Source: Octopus vulgaris
Lineage: Eukaryota
NCBI GenBank assembly: GCA_951406725.2
Contig: OX597831.1
Span: 7,316,001 to 7,380,000 of the forward strand
Length of the DNA stretch: 64,000 bases
Reading direction: 5' to 3'
Within the stretch, counting starts at the first letter, position 1; each line of letters begins with the position of its first letter. The position numbers and the translations under genes are program-made. The notes under the pieces were generated by a model. The model was not told the origin of the DNA and ran no database searches. It was given only the letters and a program-made list of their open reading frames with translations. This document shows, piece by piece, positions 480-56,044 of this stretch.

Positions 480-1180
480 AATTGTCTTATAATTAGAATT
501 AGGTGCATCAATATATTGATCATTGTTCGACTGTGGTCGAGACAATGGAATTTACTATGTTATGCCAGACTTCACGGTCCAACATAGCATTACGGAGGTC
601 CTGTTGCTGGATGTCTGTATCCCTGGAGATTACATCAGGGAAGGAGAGTGTGCACCCTCTGGTATCGCGAGCAGATGGTTTCCAGAGGAGAAGAGTAGAA
701 AGTACCTTGTTTTCAGCTCTACAACAATGTCCAGCAAACTGGACTCTTCTACCTTTCACAAGAGATGATACAGGCGGTAGTTTCCCATATATTTGTACTT
801 TGGTTGGATGACGCTTCCACGAGTGATTTTGAGCTCTCATAAGGAGACGAGGGTAAGTTCCATCCAACCGCCTCTCAAGCTTCTTTGATAACGTCCAGGT
901 TTCTGAGCCATATAGTAGAATTGGTTCAACTGTGGCTTTGAAGATTTTAAGTTTGAAATCTCTACTTAGATTTGATGACCAGATCTTATGCATATCATTA
1001 CAGGCTGACCAGGCCATACCCTTTCTAGTTAGAAAATCTTTTTTAGAGGACCCAAGATATTTGTAATCAGAAACCATATTCAAGAGCATATTGTTGGGAG
1101 TATGGATGATGAAATCACTGTTGGACAGGCACTTATTTACATATTCAGTCTTGGACTCATTGAGGTAAAGACCTTTAATT
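480..1180 (-). mobile_element. RTE-like LINE, RT C-terminal fragment
   Basis: ORF 520-1089 with YKYLGS, PILLYGSETWTL and RRVQFAGHC motifs. Confidence 0.85.
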
Positions 1181-2004
1181 GGATAGGGGTGGTAGCATGA
1201 GATGTGCAGTCAGTCGTTATTAATTTTACAATTTAATTTACCCAGGTTAAATCTTGCTATCTACATGTGTGTGTGTGTGTAGTAAATCGCTTTCTATTTA
1301 TGTATGTATGTATCTATCTATCTGTCTATACAAGTATGCATACATACACACTCATACACACGCACACACACACACAAAGCACCCATGCTGGTGTCACATA
1401 AACAGACAACTGGAGCCTGGGCAGTTCTTTGGCTGGTCAGTTCCTACCAAACCATCCAGTCCAAGTCAGCATGGAAAACGGACATTAAATGATGATGATG
1501 ACACACAAGACATTGGTCAGCCTGGAGTTATAGTAGTCTAGGTGCCACAAAAAAGGTGCCGTGCAGTGGGACTGAACCCAAAACCACATGGTTACAAAGT
1601 GAGCTTCTTCACCACACAGCTATCACTGTGCTATGATAATTTTCCTGTTCTGTGGTGATAGGTCCCTCGTCTGAGATGCCACATGCATGACACTTTCTTC
1701 AACAGCAACCTTGTGTGTTCAGTTTGTAACCCAGGCTCTGCTGCTTGTCTGCTCGAGAAGAGCAAACTGTCAAAATATTGACTACTCTCCGACAGGTCTG
1801 TGGTCAAACCTGTGGCAGTGGAGACCTCCAGCCCCCAGAAGACATCTGTAGTCACTAATATTGGGGTGGATATGACTAGCTGCAAGTGTGGTCCCCGTAA
1901 ACGAGAGGGCTGTTTCAGCGCATGTCCCTTATTATCCTCCGAGGCAACACCTTTCCCATTTTAGATATTACTTGTTACTTTCTGTTAATATATGACATCA
2001 GTGC

Positions 2005-3799: not shown

Positions 3800-4172
3800 T
3801 TGCTGTTGAGCGAACGGTCTTCGTCCCAGAGCTAGCAAGATGGGGGAAGTTCGAAACGTGGCCCTTTGCTAATTCGTAAGACCCGCAGAAGAAAAAGCAG
3901 GTCAACTCCCGACACCGAGAGCATCAACGGATGGATGAATGCGCATCCAGGCTCAGCGGTTGCGTAGGAAGTCGGGGAGGACAAGAAACAGGAAGAAAGA
4001 GTGAGAGAAAGTTTGAGCGAAAGAGTGCAACAGGGGTCGCCCCCCCCCCCTGCCGGAGCCCCGTGGAGCTTTTTCGCTCAATAAACACACACAACGCCCG
4101 GTCTGGGAATCGAAACCGCGATCCTCCGATCGCGAGTCCGCTGCCCTAACCATTGGGCCATTGCGCCTCCAC
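3800..4172 (-). mobile_element. tRNA-Arg-like SINE, full length (tail type A)
   Basis: Head GTGGAGGCGCAATGGCCCAATGGTTAGGGCAGCGGACTCGCGATCGGAGGATCGCGGTTTCGATTCC with A and B boxes; TSD TATTGTTG. Confidence 0.9.
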
Positions 4173-5439
4173 TATTGTTGAATAGGATACATTCTCATAT
4201 CTAGGGTTCGATTCCTAGTTGGCTAATGTTGTCAAGGTTTTTGAGGAAAAGTATGAATATCACATATTTCTCTCTCTCTCTCTCTCTGAATGTGTTTGCC
4301 CCTCACTTTTTCTCTCCCCCGCTCTTCCCCTATCTCTGCCTTTTCTTACCCCGTCTCTCCCCCCCCTCTGTGAGCGAGAGGATTATTATTTGTTTTTTTT
4401 CCTTTGTTACTCTTTGGCTCCGGAGGGAAGAGGCGTTGGCCACGGCTATTGCGATCGTTCCTTTCCTAAATTGGTGAGATTTGACGTTGTTCCTGTTTTT
4501 CTTGACGCTTGATGGCGGAGGTGGGTGGGTGGGGAAGAATTGTAGAGGGAGATGGTTCTGGGAAGGAAAGATTGTGTGTAGGGATTGTTGTGTATCATGA
4601 AGGTGAACTCAGGAGGGGGGTTGTGAGGAGGAGAGGGAAGTGGGTCAAAAATACATGCGGTGGGGGTGGAGGCTGAGGGTAAGTGGCAACCAGGTCTGAG
4701 GAACAGAAGCCATTATTGTATGGGAGAGGGAGAGGAAACAGACAGACAGACTGACTGACTGGCAGGCAGAATGGATCTATAATCAAAGACATTCTGGCCA
4801 TGAACATCTCATCTTTCCCCTTCAGTCTTGACAAGAAATCTTAAGAAAGGAAACTATATATAATAAATGTATGTACACACATACATACATACATACATAT
4901 ATATACATGCATGCATGCATACATACATGCTTCCGTACATACATACATACATATGATAAATGTATGTATGTATGTATGTATGTATGTATGTATGTACGGA
5001 AGCATGTATGTATGTGTGTGTGTGTGTATGTATGTGAGTGTGTGTATGTATGTATGTGTGTATGTATGTATATATGTATGTATGTATGCATGTATGTATG
5101 TATGTGTGTGTTTGTATGTATGGAATCCAGTACAAGCTGATGCATGGTTGGGCTGTTGGCAACAGACCATGTCTCTTGGAAAAGGCACTCTGGACGTCTT
5201 GGGGTCTTTTGTTTGCACTTGAGATCATGGTTGAGCTCATGTTCCTGAGATTCTGACCTATATAGGCACCAGATATCTTATGTTGGGTTGTCCTTGGATC
5301 ATGCCGATAGGGTTCTATGAGGTGTCAGGAAATGTTGCACAAGCATGGCTGACATTTTGCATGGACATTGCTGCTTGAGTGCACAATGTCTTTAATGGTC
5401 AGTGAGGGTGTTCTACTGTCAAAAGTAGAAAGCCATCGT

Positions 5440-5472
<33 letters not shown>

Positions 5473-5473
<1 letters not shown>

Positions 5474-5652
5474 GCGGTATTTCGTCTGCCGTTACGTTCT
5501 GAGTTCAAATTCCGCTGAGGTCGACTTTGCCTTTCATCCTTTCGGGGTCGATAAATAAAGTACCTGTTATGCACTGGGGTCGATATAATCGACTTAATCC
5601 CTTTGTCTGTCCTTGTTTATCCCCTCTGTGTTTAGCCCCTTGTGGGCAATAA

Positions 5653-5655
<3 letters not shown>
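5473..5655 (+). mobile_element. MetaSINE-like element (partial)
   Basis: GAGTTCAAATTCC B box followed by GCCTTTCATCCTTTCGGGGTCGATAAA...AGTACC, resembling the Meta central domain. Copies at 11600-11820 (+), 20487-20840 (-) and 28755-28990 (-). Confidence 0.75.
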
Positions 5656-5698
<43 letters not shown>

Positions 5699-6115
5699 TT
5701 GTGTGAGTACATCTGCATGCAGAACTATATTTCAAATTAATGTTCTTCCTGTTTTTGTTATTTGACTTTCTTTGAGGTTTTACCATTTTTGGTTTGTTTA
5801 ACACTTCACATGATTGTTTAAGATCCGAGGCTCTTCCAACAGAGAAGTCTTGTTAAATGGATATCACTATAAACATATGTTGCTCTGTTCATTCTATTCG
5901 TAATACATTCCTTTTGTAAAGTATTGCAGTTAGTTACAATTCTTCATTTCTCGAAAGAGATCCATCTTCAAATGAGATGAAAAAAAACTTAGATTTGCTC
6001 ATTTGGCAAAGTCTCCTCTCAGGTCACGTTGTTCTGGTTTCCTTTGTTGATGTTGTTTATTCAAAGTGTAAAGACAGATTTCATCCATCTAAAAGTGTTT
6101 TTATATACTTTACAG

Positions 6116-6334
6116 GGAAAAAAAGAGGAGACAGACAGCCAAAAGGAGGAAGAGAAACCGCCCGAGGAAGAGAAGTTACCGGAAGAAGAGGAACCAGAAG
6201 AAAAAAAGAAACCAGCTGATAAAGACAAAGCGGTTGATAAGAGCAAACCGGTTGAGAAAGGCAAAAAAGCTGCCGATGAGAAAACAGTTGAGGAGGAGGT
6301 CATGTTTAAAAGTATGGATGATAATTTATCAGAA
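6116..6334 (+). CDS. CFAP58: CFAP58 exon 2, Glu/Lys-rich N-terminal extension (GKKEETDSQ...DDNLSE)
   Basis: tttacag| acceptor, |gtaagc donor, 219 nt open, phase 0-0. No homology recognised; it is linked to CFAP58 by phase and position only. Confidence 0.65.
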
Positions 6335-6586
6335 GTAAGCATAAATTTTGTGAATTATCGTTTTTAGTCAACTGCTTCTGGTCAAATTCACAATGTTATC
6401 TGACAACCAGTTTACAATGTAGCAGCTTGTGGATTCTCATCAGCACAATACTGGAACCATTCCACTTGGAAGCAAATAATAGCAGAGTGTTAGAGTGTTA
6501 AAGTGATATCTTAATGAATTTCATAAAGTTAATGAATTTCCAATGTTGCCACAATTGTTGCCCTACATACACACAACAAGAAAATG

Positions 6587-7002
6587 GGATCTTTTCGGTT
6601 TGACTGGCAGTTTTTTTTCTAGCAGTATCATATGAAATTGTCACCCATAATTATGACCCTAGTATCGATCTATTGCATTTCAATCTGTTTTAGGGTTAGG
6701 GTTAGGGCTGGGGGGAAGGGTATCTTTTTTCTTCACAAATGTAAATAAACCCAATCTGTTTCTTAAACGAGGGACATATTCATACGGCACAGAATGTTTT
6801 CACCTCAATAGACGTCATTGATTGGTTGAAATTGCAGAAATTGAAGAAAAAAACAACAATATCTTACAAACTATAGAATTTTCTCAATAAAGCCAAGAGA
6901 AAATGATGTTTTATAAACACATTCTACCAGTTTACGGAGTTTAAAATTTTTTAGTTACGTGGAAATTATTTTAAAAAACTGCCGTTCAAACCGAAAAGAT
7001 CC
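6587..7002. mobile_element. MITE with ~30-bp TIRs and 8-bp TSD (Merlin- or hAT-like)
   Basis: GGATCTTTTCGGTTTGA.../...TCAAACCGAAAAGATCC; TSD AGAAAATG at 6579-6586 and 7003-7010. Confidence 0.9.
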
Positions 7003-7690
7003 AGAAAATGAAGTTCACGTTTAGAAGCAGATTTGACTAACAACAAGTGGACTTAGGGTTAGGGTTGCTCCCTTTTAATTCTCAAAGCATTTCTGTTGAT
7101 TCTTTAATGCTCCTTGGTAATGAGTCCCAAATCATCAGTGAATTTGAGATGATTTAGTACGCATCCATTTGCATTTATTCTCTTATCTGACCTTTTCTGA
7201 TGTGAATAATTTGGAAATTATGATGTTTCCTTGTCAGACTCTGTTACTAATTTTGTTTGTTTGTTTGTATGTCTCTTTTATTTTTTAATTATTATAAATC
7301 TTCCACCGAAGAGAGAGAGCTGGTTTCCAACAAAGATACAAGGCTCCATCTTTGGGATGTAGTTAACAGGGAAAAATTCACATTTGGAACCTGAGAAAAG
7401 TCTTGCATATTTTTACTGTTCCACTTACAAATGTGTATGTATGTATGTAGGTAGGTAGGTAGATACACACACACACAAATACATAAGTATATATGCACAA
7501 GTAAGACTGTAAGAGATAGATCCGGTTGGCCTGTTAGAAATAGCAGCCAAAACCCGCCCCTGTTACCATATCCTGTCGTCTTTAAAAATAAAAAAAAAAT
7601 AGTGCCAGAATAAGTGACCGGGTGGCGGTTGCAGCTGGCCCCGACGACGGCGGAGGCGGCGACTACCACCACCAGTAACAGCACCAGTAG

Positions 7691-8077
7691 TGGAGGCGCA
7701 ATGGCCCAGTGGTTAGGGCAGCGGACTCGCGATCGGAGGATCGCGGTTTCGATTCCCAGACCGGGCGTTGTGTGTGTTTATTGAGCGAAAACACCTAAAG
7801 CTCCACGAGGCTCCGGCAGGGGTGGTGGGTGGCGACCCCTGTTGTACTCTTTCGCTCCAACTTTCTCTCACTCTTTCTTCCTGTTTCTTGTCCTCCTCGA
7901 CTTCCTACGCAACCGCTGAGTCTGGATGCGCATTCAATCCATCCGTCGATGCTCTCGGTGTCGGGGGTTGATCTGCTTTCTCTTCTGCGGGTCTTACGAA
8001 TAGCAAAGGACCACGTTTCGGACTTCTCCCACTACGGACTAAGACCGCTTTGCTCAACAAACAAACAAGCAAACAAA
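7691..8077 (+). mobile_element. tRNA-Arg-like SINE, full length (tail type A)
   Basis: Same family as 3800-4172, in the opposite orientation. Confidence 0.9.
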
Positions 8078-17854: not shown

Positions 17855-18163
<309 letters not shown>

Positions 18164-18361
18164 TCCAACAAAACTCTTGATAAATTCAGAGGCGAATATG
18201 ATAAATTACATCAAGCCTTGAAGAAATCTCATGAAAACGAGAAAAGGTTAATGTTGAAATGTCGGGAGTTAAATGCTGAGATGATAGCTCAAGGGGCCAA
18301 AGTATCCCATCTGATGATTTTGTCCGAAGAAGACCAAACAAACATTGCTTCCCTTAAGAAG
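18164..18361 (+). CDS. CFAP58: CFAP58 exon 4, 5'-truncated (SNKTLDKFRGEYDKLHQALKKSHENEKRLMLKCRELNAE...IASLKK)
   Basis: Strong match to human GDKSLEKFRIEYERLHAVMKKSYDNEKRLMAKCRELNAE. Donor |gtaacc is present. There is no acceptor: the exon abuts (AAT)n with an in-frame TAA at 18161. Confidence 0.9.
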
Positions 18362-52071: not shown

Positions 52072-52311
52072 ATGTATGCGTGTATATATGTGACATATTC
52101 AAAGCTGTTATTTCTGCAGGTAAGAAACAATTATTCTCCCAGACACAAAGCCATCCCCAGTATAGCACATGTTTAAGGAGTGTGTTGTTGCATGGTGGTG
52201 GTGGTGATGATGGCAACAAGGATGATGTCAGCAGTGGCGAAGGTAGTGGTATTGGTATCAACTTGGTATAATTCTTGGTATAATTCTTACCAAATACCTT
52301 TTTTGTTTCAG

Positions 52312-52473
52312 GTTCTTCAATTAATGGAAGAAGTGAAAATGAGGGAAATGCAAATATTCGATTTCAAGAAGAAAATAGCCGAAGCTGAAACAAAGCTGAA
52401 ACAACAACAAAACCTTTACGAAGCCGTGAGAAGTGACCGGAATCTTTATAGTAAACATTTGATTGAATGTCAG
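52312..52473 (+). CDS. CFAP58: CFAP58 exon 12 (VLQLMEEVK...KLKQQQNLYEAVRSDRNLYSKHLIECQ)
   Basis: tttcag| and |gtgagt. Contains the hallmark KLKQQQNLYEAVRSDRNLYSK. Confidence 0.97.
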
Positions 52474-52713
52474 GTGAGTTGGGATATTTGGTCCATTGGT
52501 GCCTCTTGAAGTGTCGAGGAATGGCCATTAGGAAATAATGTATTTTAGTCGTTAGTATTCTCTGATTCAGAATCTTTTGTTTGATAATTCCTTAACGACT
52601 TTAGCCTTTTTTGTAATCAAGTTCTTTAAAATACCTAAAAAATATGAAATTGTTTTCGCTTGATAGTTTTCATTTTGGGTGTATGTGTGTGTAAGAGAGA
52701 GAGAGAGGGGGGG

Positions 52714-52744
<31 letters not shown>

Positions 52745-54099
52745 GAACTGTGTTCAGTAAAGTCAAGGCAGTAATTTGATGCCTGAGTATTAAAACTACT
52801 CCGAATAATTGGCAGGTTTTCGGTAGATTCCATATCTTGATGCTAGTGTGTGATGATTATTCATTTCTCTTGAGCTGGTAATTACTGTATTTCTGTGATA
52901 TCATCATGATAATGTAGAATGAAAGAACTTGCATTAATATGAGAGCAAGAGTCAGGAATTCTGGTAATTTTCCTGTAAATTGAGTTAGTGAGTTACGTCA
53001 AACCACAACTCTGCTGACGAGCTGACCTGTAATTATTAATTATACTATTGGTCCCGGTTGACAAAGTATATTCAGAAGATGATTTGAAAGTGTGAATGTG
53101 AAGATGGTTTAAATTACAGAATGTAAGATTAAGAATTAGTTTATGGTGCTTCCTTCTTGTATAATATACACTTGTAGTCAATAGCATCTTTGCTAATCAT
53201 TGAATCAATGTCTTCCAACTGAGGTCTAATGAGTTTTTTTATGCTTACAGCTTTGAATAAGCACAAGGATCTATTTCTGAATTCATTAATTTTGAGTTCT
53301 GTATTGTTAAGCAGATCAAATGGAAATTGTAGTTGTGATACCTGTGCCGGTGGCACGTAAAAAGCACCATTCGAACGTGGTCGATGCCGGTGCCACCTTG
53401 ACTGGCTTCCGTACTGGTGGCACGTAAAAAGCACCATTCGAACATGGCCGATGCCAGCCTTCCCCTGGCACCTGTGCCGGTGGCACGTAAAAAGCATCCA
53501 CTACACTCATGGAGTGGTTGGCATTAGGAAGGGCATCCAGCTGTAGAAACACTGCCAGATCAGACTGGGCCTGGTGCAGCCTCCTGACCCCAGTCGAACC
53601 GTCCAACCCGTGCTAGCACGGAAAACAGACGTTAAACGATGATGATGATGATGATGAGAGATAAAATTTCTTCTGCACAGAACACTGGGCTCTCATCTTC
53701 AGCTTTTAGAAGAATCCTAGAATCTACCATTCCACTCCCAAAACTGCATCAACTGGCTGTCCAACTGCATGTTGCTAGACTCCATTAGTGAAATAATCTC
53801 TTCTTGTAGCAAATATAATTTGATGAAGCCATTGAAGTCTTTTAGTGTGTGACTGTCTCAGTAGTCAACACTTATGAAGATGTAGATGCTGAAGTCATCA
53901 GCTATTCAATTTATTATACCAGTAATATCAATGGACGAATATCTTGCCATTTAAATATATTTTTTTACTTGCAAGTAAAGTCTGCAAATAATCCATTCGA
54001 ATCATTTTGTGATTTGTAATGTATGAGTGGAATACAATGGTTTCTGCACCAAATTTGTGAGGTTTGTCTTTTAGTGATAGCTAGGAAGGTAAGTTAATT

Positions 54100-54451
54100 A
54101 CGGAGATGTACTTGCGTAGCAAGTGACTTGATCTGAGATCGTGTGCTGGAACGAAAACAGTTGCAGCATGGAAGGTGTTTATAAGCCATTTAAGAAACAC
54201 ACAAAAACCGTTAGATTCACTTCAACATTTAAATTTAATTTGTCAAAATATTTTTGTCGCTTTGAGACAGTGACCTGTTCACTGACAAAACTGTTCACTG
54301 ACAAAAGATGCAGCACAAAGTTTTGTCAGTGAACAGGTCACGGTCTCAAAGCGACGAAAATATTTTGACAAATTAAATTTAAATGTTGAAGTGAATCTAA
54401 CGGTTTTTGTGCGTTTCTTAAATGGCTTATAAACACCTTCCATGCTGCAAT
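54100..54451. mobile_element. Penelope-like inverted insertion with ~130-bp inverted arms and 12-bp TSD
   Basis: Arms ~54162-54291 and ~54320-54450; TSD GGTAAGTTAATT at 54088-54099 and 54452-54463. Each arm carries a hammerhead-like motif. Confidence 0.75.
54322..54372 (+). ncRNA. Minimal hammerhead variant with swapped G3-C8 pair
   Basis: TTTGTCA-GTGAACA-G-GTCAC GGTCTCAAA GCGAC-GAA-AATATT-T-TGACAAA: 7-bp stem I and palindromic stem III AATATT. The inverted copy at 54239-54289 carries G12A. Confidence 0.65.
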
Positions 54452-54949
54452 GGTAAGTTAATTGTTTTTGAGAATAGGGAACCTCTTTGTGCTTGCCAAA
54501 TCTCAGAGGAAGAACTGTTGAAACGCACAATTCCATTCTAACCCTTTTGTCACCATATTTCTATTGAAATACTTTGCCTTTGTTTGAATATATTTTGAAA
54601 AAAATGAAATATTTTGTGAAAAGTCTGCTATTGTTAAACCGGTGCTTGGGACATAATTCCACCCAGAATAGAATTTATTCAGGAGGAAGATTTAAGCTAG
54701 CACCTGGTTTAACACTATTATTACTTGGTGCTTTTGGTTCCTTTGGTAGAAACCATTCCAGCATTTGGGGCCAGGTTTCCAGTTTGCGGATACCTCCCTT
54801 TCACCCTCCTTCCCACCAATCTTGGAGGCCCTATAAAGGGTCATGGCCGCTGCCTTCTCTCTTGACTAAAAGGTCCAAGGAAATAAAACAGTTTCCTGGA
54901 GGCATGCATATTTGTTAATAGGACACATACACACTCCACATTTGTGTGT

Positions 54950-55325: not shown

Positions 55326-55613
55326 GATGAAATTACAGAAAAGAAACGCAAACTGAAGATTATGAATCATCAAATTGATCAACTTAAAGAGGAAATTCAA
55401 TCAAAGGAAACAGCACTTGTTCAAGAGCAGACAGCTCGAGCCAGAGTGGAGAAAGAAAAAAGCGCTTTGAAAATTGAGCTCCAAAATATGAAGATCAAAG
55501 CAAATGAAACTGAGGCATACATCAACACTCAGGAGTCTGAAAAAATAAAACTAAAGAAGATTATCAGAGATGCAGATGTTGAACGATGCCGTCAGAAGAA
55601 GGAGTTAGATCAG
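55326..55613 (+). CDS. CFAP58: CFAP58 exon 13 (DEITEKKRKLKIMNHQIDQLKEEI...RQKKELDQ)
   Basis: ttttag| and |gtaata, 288 nt. Matches human DEITDMKRKLKIM...RQKKELDQ. Confidence 0.97.
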
Positions 55614-56044
55614 GTAATATGAAATAGATTTTTGATGTTTTTGAGAGGAAAAAAGTTGTATTATTGGTTGCAGACTTCTTTTTGACAAGATTTTGCAAAA
55701 TCAAAGGAATTTGGTATTGCTAACACTTGCAACTTCATTATTTGGTTTTTATTTTAAAAACCAAATAATGAAATATGTTAAATTAAAGTTATATGGAAGC
55801 TAACAATACAAGACTGTTAGAAAATAATTATAACTTAAAGCAGTGATGTTGTAGAGTTATGACCTTCTGCTACTCAGGGGACAATGATGAGGGGGTAAAA
55901 ACCTTAGTCACATCATCGTCTTGTTGTATATGTTTTGGAATTCCTCGAAAAAGAAGGCTCAGTTGAGCTGTTAATTGCATTAAGGGAATCTGGCTGTAAA
56001 AATAACCCTGGATGGAAAGACAAAAGGTAAAGCAAAAATCAAGT

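What the first reader, a model, noticed from the sequence alone, without database searches (positions are those of the whole stretch)
54088..54463. G3-C8 hammerhead in a fold-back insertion: the only intact sense-strand ribozyme is paired with its own antisense copy
A 352-bp insertion with a 12-bp TSD consists of a ~60-bp head and ~130-bp inverted arms, like the inverted pLTR ends of Penelope elements. The right arm holds a hammerhead with core GUGAACA (swapped 3-8 pair) on the CFAP58 sense strand in intron 12. The left arm is its inverted copy with G12A. Inference: in the pre-mRNA the arms form a long duplex that would mask the ribozyme and provide an ADAR substrate.
Basis: partly seen in the sequence, partly recalled or inferred. 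Interest (0 to 1): 0.72.

Follow-up and report, generated by a model that had tools for sequence, protein, structure and literature searches.

The report
Octopus Penelope stump with swapped hammerhead
This hairpin-shaped insert in an intron of an octopus cilia gene is one of thousands of short stumps of a Penelope-type jumping gene whose whole family carries a predicted self-cutting RNA motif with one core base pair swapped, and nothing marks this copy as special.

Summary
The 12-bp TSD, 132-bp arms, GUGAACA core and G12A are real. The insert is one copy of a Neptune-type Penelope-like element (PLE) family in an octopus genome (5,056 exact hits of a 27-mer). It is the element's 5' leader plus its first 30 ORF codons. 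The left, minus-strand arm carries the tail; the right arm is an untailed inverted copy. G3-C8 is family-wide (G3 in 88 of 90 arms, C3 in none) and covaries with a C3-G8 paralogue. The right arm is not fully intact (stem II A·C), and G12A is likely CpG decay. In 34 of 38 hairpins one arm is tailed and one untailed, and short copies share a 5' start with an extra G (31 of 59), likely from the cap. So each hairpin is likely two cDNAs of capped, uncut leader RNA joined head to head. Masking is predicted, but holds for every such hairpin. A-to-G changes appear in family contigs of two guessed-RNA runs, not at this locus. Cleavage is untested. The scan found this family before elsewhere in this genome (e1-9867655). 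The layout is known; I found no natural G3-C8 in print, but one key paper was unavailable.

The parts
54088..54099 (.). left target-site duplication (12 bp); its last 4 nt (AATT) also match the next templated bases of the element's ORF
54100..54160 (-). PLE 'tail': segment between the two inferred reverse-transcription start sites (about +146 to +205 of the element RNA)
   Evidence: 3' ends of 125 of 129 arms fall at +140-159 or +195-205
54100..54189 (-). first 30 codons of the PLE ORF (MAYKHLP...QVHLR)
   Evidence: open frame; continues into the RT-endonuclease ORF in tandem copies L114, L115, L127; aligns with the N-terminus of a paralogue
54161..54292 (-). left arm: tailed, element-sense copy of the leader (about +14 to +145)
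54239..54289 (-). minus-strand minimal hammerhead motif with G12A (54255) and the stem II change (54271) shared with the other arm
54275..54306 (+). 16-bp tandem duplication at the copy-specific junction
   Evidence: junctions differ among the 30 aligned copies
54306..54451 (+). right arm: untailed inverted copy from the inferred transcription start (+1 = 54306) to the inner start site
54322..54372 (+). predicted type-I minimal hammerhead: stem I 54322-28/54366-72, core G3-C8 54329-35, extra G 54336, stem II 54337-41/54351-55 (A54340·C54352 mismatch), GAAA 54356-59, 2-bp palindromic stem III, predicted cut after 54365
54452..54463 (.). right target-site duplication (12 bp)
52310..52474 (+). 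CFAP58 exon upstream of the host intron
55327..55619 (+). CFAP58 exon downstream of the host intron

Best explanation
The insert is a short, decaying copy of a high-copy octopus Penelope-like retrotransposon, likely made when two reverse transcriptions of the element's capped 5' leader RNA were joined head to head at one insertion site. Shown: the unit is the element's leader, hammerhead motif and first 30 ORF codons; one arm ends at about +205 (tailed) and the other at about +146; junctions differ per copy; the G3-C8 core is fixed in the family. Inferred (about 0.6): the element protein nicks both target strands about 12 bp apart (giving the TSD), primes cDNA on each nick from one of two internal start sites, runs to the capped 5' end (adding the extra G), and repair joins the two cDNA ends. 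The hammerhead likely works slowly, as a dimer or with protein help, in the element's own RNA, and most templates are uncut. In CFAP58 pre-mRNA this copy would fold as a long duplex that hides the motif and could be edited by ADAR, as a by-product without a selected host role.
For: Family: 40 of 40 scored hits near full length, of 3,274 candidates; 5,056 exact 27-mer hits. Autonomous partner: 1025-aa open frame with RT motifs (motif names recalled), CxxxCxxC linker and GIY-YIG (PF01541, E 1.8e-5), with the same G3-C8 motif in its terminal repeats and the tail running on into the ORF. Two end sites: 125 of 129 arms; one tailed plus one untailed arm in 34 of 38 hairpins, matching the two start sites and two-strand extension of the anole PLE in vitro (PMC11167929). 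5' ends at -5 to +4 in 49 of 129 arms. Non-template G at -1 in 31 of 59, 6 of 15 and 8 of 12 copies against 10-12.5% background G (the sets partly overlap). Variants shared by both arms: 118 against 26.9 in shuffled pairs (maximum 51 of 200 shuffles); 388 private (69 pairs). Core conservation 97.4% against 96.1% in the rest of the arm: no clear sign of selection after insertion. Four compensatory pairs, including 3-8, against a paralogous family.
Against: The cap reading rests on a base count only; non-templated addition unrelated to a cap could also give the G, and the same place looks like a splice acceptor. 4 of 38 hairpins break the one-long-one-short rule, and 43 of 85 places are single arms. 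PMC3846280 reads such head-to-head junctions as self-priming on an antisense template. No cleavage assay exists. The covariation is one comparison of two families, in 5 hand-picked rows. Clade assignment rests on motifs, with no tree. No empty target site was seen: two DNA runs also carry the insert.
Confidence: 0.8

Rival explanations
1. Same element, but the hairpin arises by self-priming or fold-back of a single template or cDNA (for example on antisense RNA), not from two sense cDNAs.
For: Proposed for rotifer PLE head-to-head junctions (PMC3846280, passages). Both arms share subfamily variants. Some junctions use stem I microhomology (6 of 30 loci).
Against: A fold-back copy should end where its template arm allows, yet either arm can be the more 5'-truncated one and the short arm ends at a fixed site that is also used by single copies. 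The extra G at -1 occurs in single copies as well as in hairpin arms.
Confidence: 0.12
2. One reading: a functional intronic switch in which an antisense arm silences an intact ribozyme in CFAP58 pre-mRNA, with ADAR editing as a regulator.
For: Masking is predicted. The insert is shared with two other DNA runs whose flanks differ by about 3.5%. Family RNA shows editing-like changes.
Against: Same layout at 38 of 85 sampled places. Stem II mismatch and a 2-bp stem III with pair probability 0.003 as a monomer. No second copy in the 64-kb window to dimerise with. Arm differences all lie at CpG sites. The intron is spliced out in one guessed-RNA contig.
Confidence: 0.04
3. A non-autonomous fold-back DNA element (MITE-like) or retrozyme that moves as a fixed hairpin unit.
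For: Similar length of about 340 bp in the 40 scored copies, though that search ranks by similarity to this copy.
Against: Junctions differ per copy. Single arms and long inverted ORF-bearing copies exist. The ends are asymmetric, TSDs vary from 7 to 16 bp, and there is no tandem monomer array here.
Confidence: 0.02

Closest known systems
Insertion units of endonuclease-positive Penelope-like elements: pLTR, inverted 5'-truncated pLTR, one-sided tail, TSD (PMC3846280; PMC8557442)
   Same: Head-to-head inverted repeat, tail on one end only, TSD of similar size, pLTR and tail containing the ORF start, initiator-like start, (TA)n bias, CX2-5CxxC linker named for Neptune elements.
   Different: No ORF body between the repeats here. 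The tail is about 55-60 nt against the 30-40 nt described. A fixed 5' start with an extra G was not in the passages I read.
Minimal type-I hammerheads of metazoan PLEs (PMC4209133)
   Same: Extra nucleotide between 9 and 10.1, G10.1-C11.1, short palindromic stem III, opposite-strand pairs 100-700 bp apart, a core covariation at 3-8 (U3-A8 in Schistosoma).
   Different: The core pair is G3-C8. In the texts I could read this appears only as an engineered double mutant with partial activity (PMC11167929; PMC3884650).
Poseidon element of Anolis (PAc) studied in vitro (PMC11167929)
   Same: Two reverse-transcription start sites inside the ORF start defining the tail, both target strands extended, ATT cut preference, uncut RNA as main template.
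   Different: Here the hammerhead lies 92 nt upstream of the ATG rather than overlapping it, and the target end often matches the next RNA bases (ATT before the head in 17 of 30), whereas PAc was reported to start without homology.
Animal non-LTR retrozymes (bioRxiv 10.64898/2026.07.22.740005, part 1 read)
   Same: Short non-coding PLE-related units with type-I hammerheads.
   Different: Retrozymes are tandem monomer arrays; these are dispersed single or inverted cDNA stumps.

Membership tests
EN+ Penelope-like element | Single ORF with RT and C-terminal GIY-YIG endonuclease linked to the repeat | tested here: met
   1025-aa frame in L108, PF01541 E 1.8e-5; tail continues into the ORF start in L114, L115, L127. 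Pfam gave no RT hit; RT motifs were recognised from recall.
EN+ Penelope-like element | pLTR with adjacent inverted 5'-truncated copy and one-sided tail | tested here: met
   34 of 38 hairpins have one tailed and one untailed arm
EN+ Penelope-like element | Variable TSD, AT-rich or microsatellite targets | tested here: met
   Of 30 copies: 11 with 7-16 bp TSDs, 10 in (TA)n-type repeats, 9 with none found
Neptune clade | CX2-5CxxC linker before the endonuclease | tested here: met
   CQSNCAVC in L108; feature named in PMC8557442
Neptune clade | RT phylogeny groups with Neptune | not tested
   no named PLE references were fetched
Minimal type-I hammerhead | Core nucleotides with a 3-8 pair, extra nt after A9, G10.1-C11.1, GAAA, UH site | tested here: met
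   All present in the right arm with G3-C8 in place of C3-G8; 57 of 83 family arms keep all core nucleotides
Minimal type-I hammerhead | Stems I-III supported by covariation | tested here: met
   4 compensatory pairs against the paralogous family, 93% of cells paired against 18-50% for slid controls; only two lineages; none seen within the family
Minimal type-I hammerhead | Match to an Rfam hammerhead model | tested here: not met
   no hammerhead hit at E 1 (whole window) or E 10 (54300-54400)
Minimal type-I hammerhead | Self-cleavage | not testable with these tools
   Indirect test inconclusive: about 2-fold more copies begin at the predicted cut (+61) than at two control sites
Non-LTR retrozyme | Tandem monomers each with a hammerhead | tested here: not met
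   no tandem array at this locus or in most sampled places; one array-like locus, L128
MITE / fold-back DNA transposon | Symmetric terminal inverted repeats, fixed internal sequence, fixed TSD | tested here: not met
ADAR-edited inverted repeat | A-to-G changes in RNA from this locus | tested here: inconclusive
   family-level signal only; locus-specific data lacking

The most novel reading that the evidence does not exclude
Thousands of octopus PLE stumps record the insertion reaction itself: two sense-strand cDNAs, each started at one of two fixed sites on opposite target strands, run to the mRNA cap and are joined head to head. That would settle how PLE inverted ends arise, against antisense self-priming. 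The same family would be the first natural lineage running on an active G3-C8 hammerhead, next to a paralogue with an A9C core.
Probability: 0.45. Interest if true: 0.58.

Novelty: new variant of a known kind. Interest (0 to 1): 0.34.

Why it matters
The locus itself is ordinary. The family matters in three modest ways. A natural G3-C8 core means standard hammerhead descriptors and Rfam miss whole high-copy families. The fixed 5' start with an extra G, and the one-tailed-one-untailed rule, give genome-scale and testable evidence on how Penelope elements build their inverted ends. Such self-folding stumps may be a large source of edited dsRNA in octopus, an animal with very high hyper-editing (PMC5625713, passages).

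Tried and rejected
Rfam scans found no hammerhead; the miRNA hits are generic hairpin matches below gathering score. Pile-up of 5' ends at the predicted cut: 48 pattern hits at +61 against 23 at +59 and 25 at +83. By eye, 18 of 30 (+61) were true ends, 6 were stem I microhomology joins and 6 were mutations or internal deletions; about 10 of 20 (+59) and 13 of 25 (+83) were true ends. Scaled counts of 28 against 12-13 give p 0.017-0.028. This is crude, with two controls only, so it is kept as a weak hint. No RNA holder was listed on record and no raw reads were offered. The unique intron flanks had no cover in the guessed-RNA run X1, so locus-specific editing could not be tested. No empty site was found. 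Run X9, guessed as RNA, showed no editing-like changes and resembled the DNA run. A spliced first exon as the source of the 5' end was rejected because copies share no sequence upstream of the single G. My first idea that the 22-codon frame over the hammerhead was the ORF's C-terminus was rejected (the ORF ends about 1 kb upstream). One search used a mis-indexed structure and is void; one search replaces it. The cut position printed was mis-computed; +61 was recounted by hand and agrees. Paper searches for a natural G3-C8 core and for a cap G in PLE copies found none. Lünse et al. (PMC5785218), the paper most likely to list such variants, is not held, and no supplements were read.

Full report
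Observation. The insert runs 54100-54451 between two exact copies of GGTAAGTTAATT. The arms are 132 nt with 3 mismatches, each at a CpG, and a 16-bp tandem duplication sits at the junction. The fold is -233.8 kcal/mol; 0 of 100 shuffles fold as well. The right arm reads as a type-I minimal hammerhead with G3-C8, an extra G after A9, a 5-bp stem II and a 2-bp palindromic stem III. It is not fully intact: G>A at 54340 puts an A·C mismatch in stem II. Mean pair probability of stem II is 0.29 in the 75-nt motif and 0.02 in the whole arm, against 0.99 for the family majority. The left arm has G12A and the same stem II change. Rfam does not detect the motif.

Host. Flanking exons match CFAP58 on the + strand. 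One exon is 100% identical to Octopus CFAP58 proteins, so the host is an octopus. A guessed-RNA contig joins 52474 to 55327. Eleven exon blocks map upstream and a twelfth is implied, so 'intron 12' is plausible but not shown. Two DNA runs with flanks about 3.5% different also carry the insert; no empty site was seen.

Family. All 40 scored hits of 3,274 candidates cover nearly the whole unit, the 39 other than this copy at 89-93%. A 27-mer has 5,056 exact hits. In 30 aligned copies the head and arms are conserved while the junction differs copy by copy. Longer copies carry a 1025-aa open frame with RT motifs (names recalled), a CxxxCxxC linker and a GIY-YIG domain, with the same G3-C8 motif in their end repeats. 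In tandem copies the head continues into the ORF. So the unit is the element's 5' leader plus 30 codons; the tailed copy reads on the window's minus strand. The linker is the feature named for Neptune elements in PMC8557442 (passages); no tree was built.

Architecture. I sampled the first 100 listed places, all on one contig: 89 loci, 4 dropped as duplicates, 85 places. They gave 38 short hairpins, 43 single arms and 4 others. Hairpins have two chances to match the pattern, so their share is overstated, and two 'singles' are the ends of one long inverted copy. The 3' ends of 125 of 129 arms fall at +140-159 or +195-205, and 34 of 38 hairpins have one of each. This fits the anole element, which extends both target strands from two start sites that define the tail (PMC11167929, parts 1-2 of 4). 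The 5' ends of 49 of 129 arms lie at -5 to +4. Where a copy does not continue into genomic template, the base before +1 is G in 31 of 59, 6 of 15 and 8 of 12 cases (partly overlapping sets), against 10-12.5% G nearby; the template has C, and nothing further upstream is shared. I read this as reverse transcription of the cap (a known signature, recalled). Arms of one insertion share 118 variants against 26.9 in shuffled pairs, and have 388 private ones (69 pairs): same source type, then independent decay.

The hammerhead. G3 is present in 88 of 90 arms and C8 in 82 of 91; no arm has C3. 57 of 83 arms keep every core nucleotide and 5 of 83 have G12 changed. Core positions are barely better conserved than the rest of the arm (97.4% against 96.1%), so there is no clear sign of selection on inserted copies. 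A paralogous family has a hammerhead motif at the same place before its ATG, with compensatory changes in stems I, II, III and the 3-8 pair. This is one comparison of two lineages in 5 hand-picked rows, but it supports the fold. The architecture is that of metazoan PLE minimal hammerheads, which cleave weakly and as dimers (PMC4209133, parts 1-2 of 4; PMC6765202, passages). Natural U3-A8 is published (PMC4209133; PMC3088659, passages). G3-C8 I found only as an engineered variant (PMC11167929; PMC3884650, passages) in searches; PMC6155905 (passages) did not mention it. Lünse et al. (PMC5785218) was not available, and no supplements were read, so novelty is provisional. Copies starting at the predicted cut are about twice as frequent as at two control sites, a weak hint only. 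Far more copies run through the cut site, so most templates were uncut.

Masking and editing. Forcing stems I and II in the whole insert costs 69 kcal/mol, and their pair probability is 0. The antisense arm is transcribed first in CFAP58, so masking is predicted. It holds for any such hairpin in either orientation. In one search (40 of 58 difference rows shown), seven A>G or T>C rows reach 3-64% of contig depth in guessed-RNA runs X3 and X4 but under 0.1% in DNA run X20 (for example 54398: 51% and 42% against 0.08%). One G>A row (54141) was also much higher in X3 and X4, probably a species or subfamily difference. X9 showed next to none of these changes. These are contigs of any family copy, from other individuals, with RNA status guessed, so this is family-level support only. 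Editing of repeats, including lizard Penelope copies, is known (PMC5625713, passages).

Comparison and novelty. Inverted pLTR, one-sided tail, TSD, an ORF start inside the pLTR and an initiator-like start are described for PLEs (PMC3846280, passages; PMC2377424, passages). Octopus Penelope families are catalogued (PMC13282606, passages). It is not a retrozyme array (bioRxiv 2026.07.22.740005, part 1 of 5) or a MITE. Earlier AI notes of this scan describe the same family and layout; they agree but are not independent support, and none was found on the cap G.

Verdict. A real but ordinary copy of a known kind of insertion. The family-level points (natural G3-C8 core, extra 5' G, paired start sites) are worth a follow-up; the locus-specific regulatory reading is not supported. 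Interest 0.34; new variant of a known kind.

Noticed in passing
L112:8383-8448 and 3942-7877; G000, 3,203 exact pattern hits: A paralogous PLE family (1312-aa ORF with Asn-rich insert, 51% identity) has a C3-G8 hammerhead motif with C at position 9 in 97 of the first 100 listed hits and A in 3; it also forms short hairpins.
   Followed up: partly
L061-L090, just upstream of +1 (473 exact hits): The inferred transcription start coincides with a branch-point, pyrimidine tract and CAG sequence that looks like a splice acceptor, downstream of a (TACA)n tract; unexplained.
   Followed up: partly
window 54096-54099 and L001-L030 ends: Target ends often match the next templated RNA bases (ATT before the head in 17 of 30), hinting at microhomology-assisted priming.
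   Followed up: partly
window 18140-18165: The CFAP58 exon at 18164 is preceded directly by an (AAT)n run with no acceptor; about five codons seen in an octopus homologue are missing (assembly gap or repeat insertion).
   Followed up: no
window 53250-53640: Another very high-copy repeat with internal 63-67 bp direct repeats lies in the same intron.
   Followed up: no
window 523-1209, minus strand: 229-aa open frame resembling the RT end of an RTE-type LINE (resemblance recalled, not tested).
   Followed up: no
L128: A locus with at least six tandem untailed leader copies separated by short (TA)n, next to a tailed copy and an ORF start; retrozyme-like array.
   Followed up: no
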